From Escherichia coli (lineage in GTDB: Bacteria > Pseudomonadota > Gammaproteobacteria > Enterobacterales > Enterobacteriaceae), in the NCBI RefSeq assembly GCF_003334335.1, contig NZ_QOWQ01000188.1: a stretch of DNA of 448 nucleotides. One strand, 5' to 3'. The position numbers and the translations under genes are program-made. The notes under the pieces were generated by a model that searched no databases, was not told where the DNA came from, and worked only from the letters and a program-made list of their open reading frames with translations. The stretch's first letter is position 1. Each line of letters starts with the position of its first letter. Of the stretch, positions 1 through 448 are shown in pieces.

Positions 1-254
1 CGCCAGGCGTTGATCCCGGCGGTTTTGAGTTCTCTGGCTTTTTCCGGGCTGATGGATGGCTGTACATATTCTGCAATTTCACCGGCCTCTCCTCTCAGAC
101 AAGCGGCATAAATATCCCGCCCGTATGCTTCGGTATCGCTGGCTGTTGCAGTGAAAGGAACCGCCTGCTCAATGTGCTCAAACTTCACCATGCAATTCAC
201 AGCAGTGTGATCTTTATCTGCCCATTGCGGATTGCTTATTTTTTCCACATTCAT
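1..254 (-). CDS. 5' portion (first 84 codons, 3' end beyond the left edge) of a small acidic protein; candidate tail-fibre assembly chaperone (Tfa-like) by position, otherwise hypothetical protein
   Basis: Minus-strand ATG at 254-252 lies 6 nt downstream of AGGAG (265-261); an in-frame ATG at 260-258 directly abuts the SD (0-nt spacing) and is a less likely start. The frame is open to position 1. Translation from 254: MNVEKISNPQWADKDHTAVNCMVKFEHIEQAVPFTATASDTEAYGRDIYAACLRGEAGEIAEYVQPSISPEKARELKTAGINAW... Net acidic (about 13 D/E vs 8 K/R) with E. coli-like codons (CTG, GAA, AAA, CCG). The plus-strand frame over the same codons translates to a Cys/His/Phe-rich, low-plausibility peptide with no ATG or RBS. 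Tfa-like label is inferred from position next to a putative fibre tip; the N-terminus is not recognised by sequence. Confidence 0.6.
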   Translation of the reverse strand, partial: MNVEKISNPQWADKDHTAVNCMVKFEHIEQAVPFTATASDTEAYGRDIYAACLRGEAGEIAEYVQPSISPEKARELKTAGINAW

Positions 255-260
255 GTTCAT

Positions 261-265
261 CTCCT
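261..265 (-). promoter_or_regulatory. Shine-Dalgarno (AGGAG) for the downstream minus-strand CDS
   Basis: Plus strand 'ctcct' at 261-265 is AGGAG on the minus strand. Minus-strand context: TGA-CAGAC-AGGAG-ATG-AAC-ATG. It sits 6 nt before the ATG at 254-252 and 5 nt after the upstream stop. Confidence 0.55.
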
Positions 266-270
266 GTCTG

Positions 271-448
271 TCAGTATGCGCGCTGGAACAGCCCGATGCC
301 TTCATTGTCATTTGTCGACGTAATTTCATTACACACCATCCATGAGCCCGGAACTGAGGATAGGTTGCCGTCAATGCCATCGGTGTTAGCTTTCATATAG
401 TTTCCGTTTTCGTCTTTGATTAGGGCGCATCGCTTAAGGCGTGAACCC
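271..448 (-). CDS. 3' end (58 codons plus stop) of a larger gene whose 5' part lies beyond the right edge of the window; probable phage tail-fibre / receptor-binding protein C-terminal tip (function inferred, not recognised by name)
   Basis: Minus-strand frame is stop-free from position 448 down to the TGA at 273-271 (plus strand 'tca'). Translation N->C: GSRLKRCALIKDENGNYMKANTDGIDGNLSSVPGSWMVCNEITSTNDNEGIGLFQRAY*. 26 of 58 residues are N/G/D/S/T, with two Cys. A Shine-Dalgarno and start for the next gene follow 5-10 nt after the stop, i.e. an operon arrangement. Plus-strand frames 1 and 2 over this region contain stops. Functional label rests on composition and gene order only. Confidence 0.6.
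   Translation of the reverse strand, partial: GSRLKRCALIKDENGNYMKANTDGIDGNLSSVPGSWMVCNEITSTNDNEGIGLFQRAY

What the first reader, a model, noticed from the sequence alone, without database searches (positions are those of the whole stretch)
252..273. Compact stop-SD-start junction with tandem in-frame ATGs
Minus-strand sequence reads TGA(273-271)-CAGAC-AGGAG(265-261)-ATG(260-258)-AAC-ATG(254-252). The first ATG has zero spacing to the SD; the second has a 6-nt spacing, so the protein most likely starts MNVEK... rather than MNMNVEK... The two genes are in different frames and separated by only 10 nt, which suggests translational coupling and co-expression. Automated annotators may pick the longer start.
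Basis: seen in the sequence. Interest (0 to 1): 0.3.

Follow-up and report, generated by a model that had tools for sequence, protein, structure and literature searches.

The report
Ordinary ribosome-binding site, second ATG start
This is a normal gene junction in an E. coli prophage, between a tail-fibre gene and its likely chaperone gene; the chaperone protein almost certainly starts at the second of two nearby ATGs, as current automatic annotation already has it.

Summary
On the minus strand the sequence reads TGA(273-271)-CAGAC-AGGAG(265-261)-ATG(260-258)-AAC-ATG(254-252). The window is the junction between a collagen-like side tail-fibre gene and a DUF4376 gene (ORF-191 of P-Eib phages) in a lambdoid E. 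coli prophage.

ATG2 (254-252) is the start:
- It has near-optimal SD spacing. ATG1 abuts the SD core and can pair with 16S rRNA as part of an extended SD (AGGAGAUGA).
- Diverged homologues have their first Met at the ATG2 position, and in two of them an in-frame TGA directly precedes it.
- In 49 of 72 distinct natural junction variants, ATG1 is out of frame or cut off by a stop, yet the ORF is intact.

PGAP, the phage pipelines and the metagenome gene callers already use ATG2. Only the 2000 GenBank record AF151674 uses ATG1.

Co-expression is well supported by context. True translational coupling is possible but has no positive evidence: the SD is unpaired and the local fold is no more stable than shuffled sequence.

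By-product: a linked indel haplotype (spacer ATGAC plus an A7 run) moves the start to a third ATG in the +1 frame, giving MWKKIS....

Verdict: real, ordinary, already known.

The parts
271..448 (-). 3' end of the side tail-fibre gene (collagen-like, 'prophage tail fiber N-terminal domain-containing protein'). It ends ...GIGLFQRAY and stops at TGA 273-271.
   Evidence: Translation. The full-length 496-aa homologue in NZ_CP027323 is annotated by PGAP. PHROG tail-fibre families match, phrog_366 E=1e-117.
271..273 (-). TGA stop codon of the tail-fibre gene.
   Evidence: the upstream CDS ends at locus 6178, which is window 271.
261..265 (-). Shine-Dalgarno core AGGAG. An extended match AGGAGAUGA spans 265-257.
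   Evidence: Duplex with the 16S 3' tail: -6.2 kcal/mol for the core, -9.5 kcal/mol when the UGA of ATG1 and the following A also pair. The region is unpaired in the predicted mRNA fold.
258..260 (-). ATG1: an in-frame ATG that abuts the SD core. Most likely it is spacer or part of the SD, not a start.
   Evidence: Zero spacing to AGGAG, aligned spacing -2, about 12 kcal/mol model penalty. Out of frame or blocked in 49 of 72 distinct natural variants. No homologue has a residue here; the Citrobacter-type loci read ATT at the equivalent place.
252..254 (-). ATG2: the probable initiation codon of the DUF4376 protein (193 aa, MNVEKISNPQW...).
   Evidence: 6 nt after AGGAG, aligned spacing 4-5. 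It aligns with the first Met of all homologues that share this N-terminal module. Chosen by PGAP and the phage annotations.
248..250 (-). ATG3 in the +1 frame. It is silent in this allele and is the only usable start in alleles with an A7 run (MWKKISNPQW...).
   Evidence: The isolated phages PhiR5_1 and PhiR12_3 are annotated from it.
239..244 (-). A6 homopolymer (codons GAA AAA ATA). It is polymorphic, A6 or A7, in related prophages.
   Evidence: Junction census.
1..254 (-). 5' part (first 84 codons) of the DUF4376 gene (ORF-191 of P-Eib phages), a probable tail-fibre chaperone.
   Evidence: Translation. Pfam DUF4376 E=4.6e-20 on the full-length protein. phrog_1141 E=1.8e-78. PGAP annotation. 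The chaperone role of DUF4376 proteins in Alteromonas phages is described in PMC7289586 and PMC10579305.

Best explanation
The window spans the junction of two co-transcribed late genes of a lambdoid E. coli prophage of the P-Eib type: a collagen-like side tail-fibre gene, and directly downstream a DUF4376 gene that most likely encodes the fibre's assembly chaperone. The DUF4376 gene has a canonical Shine-Dalgarno site, AGGAG, placed 5 nt after the fibre stop codon. Initiation occurs at ATG2 (254-252), 6 nt after AGGAG, and gives a 193-aa protein that starts MNVEKISNPQW. ATG1 (260-258) is not a start. It abuts the SD core, and its U and G, together with the following A, can pair with the 16S 3' tail as part of an extended SD (AGGAGAUGA). 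A 30S subunit docked on the SD therefore cannot place ATG1 in the P site. Shown here: the sequence anatomy, the SD energetics and spacing, the position of the homologues' N-termini, and the dispensability of ATG1 in natural variants. Inferred: that ribosomes actually start at ATG2, that the two genes are co-expressed from the phage late transcript, and that the DUF4376 protein acts as a chaperone.
For: (1) Spacing. ATG2 lies 6 nt after AGGAG (aligned spacing 4-5, penalty about 0), while ATG1 has 0 nt spacing (aligned -2, about 12 kcal/mol penalty, roughly 250-fold lower rate in a Salis-type model).
(2) Homologues. Proteins that share the N-terminal module start M-x-[IV]-[ED]-K-I, aligned with ATG2. 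At the DNA level, an in-frame TGA directly precedes that Met in L160 and L165, so no extension is possible there. All eight diverged junctions have a purine-rich SD 4-8 nt upstream of that codon. The Citrobacter-type loci read TAG-C-AGGAG-ATTGT-ATG, with no ATG1.
(3) Natural variants. A census anchored on a downstream 21-mer gave 72 distinct junction sequences. In 49 of them ATG1 is out of frame or followed by TGA, and the ORF (about 190 codons) remains intact. In the 8 ATGAC+A6 variants, ATG2 is the only possible ATG start.
(4) Annotation. PGAP, the PhiR5_2 and PhiR12_5 phage annotations and the metagenome gene calls (P0001, P0003, 193 aa) all use ATG2.
(5) Context. Tail genes gpJ, fibre and DUF4376 lie in one orientation, and no promoter-like or terminator-like site was found on the coding strand in the window. 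Stop-to-start gaps are 20 nt or less in 21 of 32 distinct DUF4376 junction types.
Against: There are no experimental data: no N-terminal proteomics, toeprinting or initiation-site ribosome profiling. The 2000 GenBank record AF151674 annotates ATG1. Ribosomes that terminate at TGA 273-271 and re-initiate could occasionally use ATG1, the first AUG they meet, so a minor 195-aa isoform cannot be excluded for this allele. The spacing penalties come from a published empirical model recalled from memory and applied roughly. The census may over-count related prophage lineages.
Confidence: 0.85

Rival explanations
1. ATG1 (260-258) is the true start and gives a 195-aa protein MNMNVEK..., as annotated in AF151674.
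For: It is the first in-frame ATG after the fibre stop codon, and the depositors of AF151674 chose it. It is in frame in this allele and in L162.
Against: Zero SD spacing, with ATG1 inside the extended SD helix. No homologue has residues at these positions. ATG1 is out of frame or stop-blocked in 49 of 72 distinct variants whose ORFs are intact. All current pipelines reject it.
Confidence: 0.04
2. Dual initiation. ATG2 is the main start, and a minor 195-aa isoform arises at ATG1 from ribosomes that terminate at the fibre TGA 10 nt upstream and re-initiate at the first AUG they meet.
For: The gap between stop and ATG1 is short (10 nt), and both ATGs are in frame in this allele. Termination-reinitiation at nearby AUGs is an established bacterial mechanism (general knowledge, not tested here).
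Against: Nothing selects for ATG1: it is lost in most variants. SD pairing still guides re-initiating ribosomes and places ATG2 in the P site (inference).
Confidence: 0.08
3. A longer product exists. It would start at an upstream in-frame ATG inside the fibre gene (for example 329-327, which has an SD-like GGAUGGUG), or it would be a fibre-DUF4376 fusion made by frameshifting or stop-codon readthrough.
For: In this allele the DUF4376 frame is open about 135 nt upstream, with four in-frame ATGs. The one at 329-327 has -9.4 kcal/mol anti-SD complementarity at 3 nt spacing. In ATGAC+A6 alleles the fibre TGA (context TGA-C) is in frame with ATG2 (worked out from the sequences).
Against: The frame relation between the two ORFs differs among the four junction classes, and the upstream extension is closed by a stop in 49 of 72 variants and in the diverged homologues. 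No slippery heptamer was seen by inspection in the overlap. No homologue carries such an extension, except evident mis-calls such as P0002.
Confidence: 0.02
4. Initiation at the in-frame GTG (248-246), giving a 191-aa protein.
For: It is in frame, and the P-Eib gene is called ORF-191 although its annotated CDS encodes 195 aa. The widespread homologue P0028 is 191 aa, which explains the name more simply.
Against: 12 nt from the SD core, a weaker start codon, and downstream of a well-placed ATG. The homologues' first Met aligns two codons upstream.
Confidence: 0.01

Closest known systems
ORF-191C/D/E of bacteriophages P-EibC/D/E (GenBank AF151674-AF151676; AAF63034.1)
   Same: About 99% identical DNA across the junction and the 5' part of the gene. 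Same position, upstream of an eib (YadA-like immunoglobulin-binding protein) gene.
   Different: That record starts the CDS at ATG1 (195 aa). The evidence here favours ATG2 (193 aa), as in RefSeq WP_106894450.1.
DUF4376 tail-fibre chaperones of Alteromonas phages (V22 gp27, A5 gp9; PMC7289586, PMC10579305)
   Same: A protein of about 190-240 aa with a C-terminal DUF4376 domain, encoded immediately downstream of a tail-fibre gene.
   Different: Only the Pfam domain is shared. The chaperone role of the E. coli prophage protein was not tested. PHROGs label the family 'tail fiber protein'.
Fibre and assembly-protein gene pairs of lambda (stf-tfa), Mu (S-U) and P2 (H-G)
   Same: The same gene order, and a modular arrangement. 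Here the N-terminal 70-80 aa of the downstream protein varies while the C-terminal domain is conserved (P0016, P0019 and P0021 against P0003).
   Different: A different protein family: DUF4376 was the only Pfam match found. In Tfa proteins, as I recall, the modular logic is the reverse, with a conserved N-terminus and a variable C-terminus.
Canonical Shine-Dalgarno initiation with about 5 nt aligned spacing (Shine and Dalgarno; Chen et al. 1994; the Salis et al. 2009 spacing model, all cited from memory)
   Same: An AGGAG core and a 6 nt gap to the AUG.
   Different: Nothing unusual. The only quirk is an in-frame AUG embedded in the SD region.

Membership tests
Pfam DUF4376 (PF14301) | Significant match to the family HMM | tested here: met
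   i-Evalue 4.6e-20, residues 75-185 of the full-length protein from L002. All homologues carry PF14301.
V22 gp27-type tail-fibre chaperone | Encoded immediately downstream of, and in the same orientation as, a tail-fibre gene | tested here: met
   The fibre CDS ends 16 nt before the DUF4376 CDS in NZ_CP027323. The same arrangement holds in L160-L166 and in 32 junction types.
V22 gp27-type tail-fibre chaperone | Required for folding or trimerisation of the cognate fibre and absent from the mature fibre | not testable with these tools
   This needs co-expression and pull-down experiments. PhiR12_1-type phages with the gene cut by an IS after 41 codons were still isolated on lab strains, so the gene is not essential for plaque formation on those hosts.
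Canonical SD-dependent start site | At least 4-5 nt of complementarity to the 16S 3' tail upstream of the start | tested here: met
   AGGAG core -6.2 kcal/mol, extended match -9.5 kcal/mol.
Canonical SD-dependent start site | About 4-9 nt between the SD and the start codon | tested here: met
   Met for ATG2 (6 nt) and not met for ATG1 (0 nt).
Canonical SD-dependent start site | Start position conserved in homologues | tested here: met
   The first Met of 13 aligned homologues coincides with ATG2. In-frame stops directly upstream in L160 and L165.
Canonical SD-dependent start site | Experimentally mapped N-terminus or initiation site | not testable with these tools
   No proteomic or ribosome-profiling data were available.
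Translationally coupled gene pair | Same transcript with a very short or overlapping stop-start distance | tested here: met
   10 nt to ATG1 and 16 nt to ATG2. No promoter-like or terminator-like site on the coding strand.
Translationally coupled gene pair | Downstream RBS sequestered in mRNA structure that upstream translation opens | tested here: not met
   The SD is unpaired in the MFE and centroid structures. Fold energy z = 0.20 against shuffles.
Translationally coupled gene pair | Downstream translation depends on upstream translation | not testable with these tools
   This needs reporter assays with a premature stop in the fibre gene.
Programmed frameshift or readthrough fusion | Conserved frame relation between the two ORFs, with a slippery or leaky site | tested here: not met
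   The stop-to-start distance, and so the frame offset, differs among junction classes: 16, 15, 19 and 20 nt. Homologues have in-frame stops.
Rfam Mu-gpT-DE RNA (RF03012) | Score at or above the gathering threshold | tested here: not met
   16.6 bits against a gathering score of 49, E = 0.32, at 252-276 on the minus strand. Treated as chance.

The most novel reading that the evidence does not exclude
The ATGAATG start cluster and the adjacent A6/A7 run may act as a frameshift-tolerant start or an expression-tuning start. In the common ATGAC+A7 haplotype, the best-placed ATG (ATG2) becomes an out-of-frame decoy that encodes a 13-aa peptide. The chaperone must then be made from ATG3, 9 nt after the SD, or by +1 slippage of tRNA-Lys or RNA polymerase on the A7 run, which would restore MNVEKIS. 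The indel haplotypes would then be heritable settings of chaperone dosage relative to the fibre, rather than neutral variants rescued by a fortuitous ATG.
Probability: 0.1. Interest if true: 0.35.

Novelty: already known. Interest (0 to 1): 0.1.

Why it matters
It matters only for annotation hygiene. The 195-aa start in the old P-Eib GenBank records should be read as 193 aa, and RefSeq already has it right. The junction is a textbook case of an in-frame ATG embedded in the SD region that a longest-ORF rule would mis-call. The comparative method used here settles such ambiguities without experiments: in-frame stops in homologues, plus natural indel variants that knock ATG1 out of frame. The indel haplotypes that move the start to a third ATG are a small curiosity for anyone studying expression of the tail-fibre chaperone.

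Tried and rejected
(1) Rfam scan of the window at a permissive E-value. The only hit was Mu-gpT-DE at 252-276, 16.6 bits against a gathering score of 49. Rejected as chance.

(2) Sequence search of solved structures with the DUF4376 protein. Nothing significant; the best hit had E = 0.95. No structure prediction was run, because it does not bear on the choice of start site.

(3) Attempt to read Sandt and Hill 2000 (PMID 10722621) to learn why the gene is called ORF-191. The paper is not held. The name probably follows a 191-aa homologue such as P0028.

(4) Search for a paper on the PhiR5 and PhiR12 phages. Nothing relevant.

(5) I first read the 65% coverage of hits H5-H8 as a mosaic recombination boundary. 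It is in fact an IS insertion that truncates the gene after 41 codons.

(6) Promoter and terminator scan. All hits lie on the non-coding (+) strand and are at chance level.

(7) RBS sequestration as a basis for coupling. Not supported by the predicted fold.

(8) The look-up of encoding contigs for P0014 found nothing on record.

Full report
**Observation.** The minus strand of the window reads ...CAG CGC GCA TAC TGA CAGAC AGGAG ATG AAC ATG AAT GTG GAA AAA ATA AGC.... The stop and ATG1 are offset by 13 nt, so the two ORFs are in different frames. The intergenic gap is 10 nt to ATG1 and 16 nt to ATG2. AGGAG-N6-ATG occurs once in the window, against 0.01 expected in dinucleotide shuffles. That is what a real gene start looks like, and it is not remarkable.

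**What the genes are.** The window matches at 98-99.8% the same junction in isolated Escherichia phages (PhiR5_x, PhiR12_x), in the P-EibC/D/E phage fragments, and in prophages of 30 complete E. coli genomes. In NZ_CP027323 the order is tail assembly genes, gpJ, a 496-aa collagen-like 'prophage tail fiber N-terminal domain-containing protein', a 193-aa 'DUF4376 domain-containing protein', and then a YadA-like (Eib-type) gene.
- The upstream ORF in the window is the last 58 codons of the fibre.
- The downstream ORF is the first 84-86 codons of the DUF4376 protein. The full-length protein matches Pfam DUF4376 at E = 4.6e-20 and phrog_1141 at E = 1.8e-78.
- DUF4376 proteins encoded directly after fibre genes are described as intermolecular fibre chaperones in Alteromonas phages V22 and A5 (PMC7289586, PMC10579305). 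By position and domain this protein is probably the same kind of thing. That is an inference.

**Which ATG: physical argument.** The 16S 3' tail pairs with the AGGAG core at -6.2 kcal/mol. If the U and G of ATG1 and the following A also pair (AGGAGAUGA against the consensus AGGAGGUGA), the duplex reaches -9.5 kcal/mol. ATG1 therefore sits inside the SD helix.

| Candidate | nt after AGGAG | Aligned spacing | Model penalty (kcal/mol) | Frame |
|---|---|---|---|---|
| ATG1 (260-258) | 0 | -2 | about 12, roughly 250-fold less initiation | in frame |
| ATG2 (254-252) | 6 | 4 | about 0 | in frame |
| ATG3 (250-248) | 10 | 8 | 1.15 | +1 frame |
| GTG (248-246) | 12 | 10 | 2.40 | in frame |

Spacing here is measured against the 9-mer UAAGGAGGU. 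The penalty function is a published empirical formula that I applied from memory, so the numbers are indicative only.

**Which ATG: comparative argument.** Homologues that share the N-terminal module begin MNIETI, MKIEKI, MEIEKI, MKVDKI, MIIEKI and MNIEDI. Their first Met aligns with ATG2. Those are annotators' calls, so I fetched the DNA and inspected the junctions.
- In L160 and in L165 (the most widespread relative) an in-frame TGA directly precedes the Met, so no extension is possible.
- The Citrobacter-type loci read TAG-C-AGGAG-ATTGT-ATG, with ATT where this window has ATG1.
- All eight diverged junctions have a purine-rich SD 4-8 nt upstream of the codon aligned with ATG2.
- L161 (P0015, MIVKIEKI) repeats the ambiguity. 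An ATG lies 2 nt after AGGTGA, a GTG sits at the consensus position, and there the gene caller did take the longer form.

**Which ATG: natural-variant argument.** I used the 21-mer AAGCAATCCGCAATGGGCAGA, which lies downstream of the start region, as an unbiased anchor in the viral and metagenome collections. This gave 85 instances and 72 distinct sequences with this junction. They fall into four classes defined by two 1-nt indels.

| Class | Spacer + A-run | Distinct sequences | Usable start |
|---|---|---|---|
| A | ATGAC + A7 | 40 | ATG3 only (MWKKISNPQW) |
| B (this window) | ATGAAC + A6 | 23 | ATG1 and ATG2 both in frame |
| C | ATGAC + A6 | 8 | ATG2 is the only in-frame ATG |
| D | ATGAAC + A7 | 1 | ATG3 only |

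ATG1 is in frame and unblocked only in class B. The ORF is intact (about 190 codons) in all classes. So in 49 of 72 variants the gene does without ATG1. The upstream in-frame ATGs inside the fibre gene (380-378, 329-327, 311-309, 305-303) are likewise cut off by a stop in those variants. The lineages are probably not all independent, so the counts are descriptive.

**Annotation.** PGAP starts the CDS at ATG2. So do the PhiR5_2 and PhiR12_5 records and the metagenome gene calls P0001 and P0003. Class A phages PhiR5_1 and PhiR12_3 are annotated from ATG3. Only AF151674 (2000) uses ATG1.

**Coupling.**
- Both genes lie in the phage late tail operon in one orientation.
- The coding strand of the window has no promoter-like or terminator-like site.
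- Short gaps are typical of the family: 20 nt or less in 21 of 32 distinct junction types.

Co-expression is therefore a safe inference. Strict translational coupling is not shown. The SD is unpaired in the predicted fold and the local structure is no more stable than shuffles (z = 0.20). The RBS can therefore be used independently. Re-initiation by terminating ribosomes remains possible.

**Fusion by recoding.** I rejected this. The frame offset between the fibre stop and the DUF4376 start differs among classes (gaps of 16, 15, 19 and 20 nt), and homologues have in-frame stops.

**Verdict.** This is a real, canonical RBS with an in-frame ATG embedded in the SD region. The start is ATG2 (confidence about 0.85), with at most a minor contribution from ATG1. 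It is ordinary and already correctly annotated in RefSeq. The only mildly interesting by-product is the linked indel haplotype that shifts the start to a third ATG in another frame.

Noticed in passing
window 239-260 (minus strand); L005, L007, L011, L157, L158 and the census loci L084-L155: Two 1-nt indels define four junction haplotypes: the spacer is ATGAAC or ATGAC, and the run is A6 or A7. The commonest, ATGAC+A7 (40 of 72 distinct sequences), is also found in the isolated phages PhiR5_1 and PhiR12_3. In it ATG2 is out of frame and would give a 13-aa peptide (MNVEKNKQSAMGR), and the ORF starts at ATG3 (MWKKIS...). A7 is almost always linked to ATGAC (40 of 41), so this is a real haplotype and not homopolymer sequencing error.
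   Followed up: partly
L159 (PhiR12_1) 895-1689; also hits H6-H8: In PhiR12_1, and by their identical 65% match PhiR12_2, PhiR12_2_star and PhiR12_4, the DUF4376 gene is truncated after 41 codons. An element encoding an 'ATP-binding transposition helper protein' (IS21 IstB-like) is inserted there. These phages were still isolated on E. coli K-12 or C, so the gene seems dispensable on lab hosts, much like lambda stf.
   Followed up: partly
window 261-395 (minus strand): In this allele the DUF4376 reading frame stays open about 135 nt upstream, overlapping the end of the fibre gene. The longest-ORF product would be 235 aa (MALTATYPQF...). The in-frame ATG at 329-327 has an SD-like GGAUGGUG (-9.4 kcal/mol). 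Mis-called proteins such as P0002 (MKLRRQMIMKASG...) come from this frame.
   Followed up: yes
L001 970-2484; L002 7469-8638: A YadA-like immunoglobulin-binding adhesin gene (eibC, 'YadA C-terminal domain-containing protein') lies about 350-700 nt downstream of the DUF4376 gene. This is the known Eib cargo gene of these prophages.
   Followed up: no
L160 1028-1373; L166 1034-1379: Some relatives carry a second gene directly after the first DUF4376 gene. In L160 it also matches DUF4376, which suggests tandem chaperone or fibre-accessory genes.
   Followed up: no
L007, L118 and similar (ATGAC+A6 class): In this class the fibre stop TGA, in a TGA-C context that I recall as a weak terminator, is in frame with the DUF4376 ORF (TGA CAG ACA GGA GAT GAC ATG). 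Readthrough would fuse the fibre and the DUF4376 protein. The relation is not conserved in other classes, so it is probably meaningless.
   Followed up: partly
(AF151674; P0028): The P-Eib gene is named ORF-191, yet its annotated CDS encodes 195 aa. The neighbouring ORF-156 and ORF-60 names do match their lengths. The name probably follows a 191-aa homologue such as the MKVDKI type.
   Followed up: partly
proteins P0016, P0019, P0021 against P0003: DUF4376 proteins are mosaic. Unrelated N-terminal segments of 70-80 aa are joined to near-identical C-terminal DUF4376 domains. This suggests that the N-terminal module travels with the fibre tip it serves.
   Followed up: no
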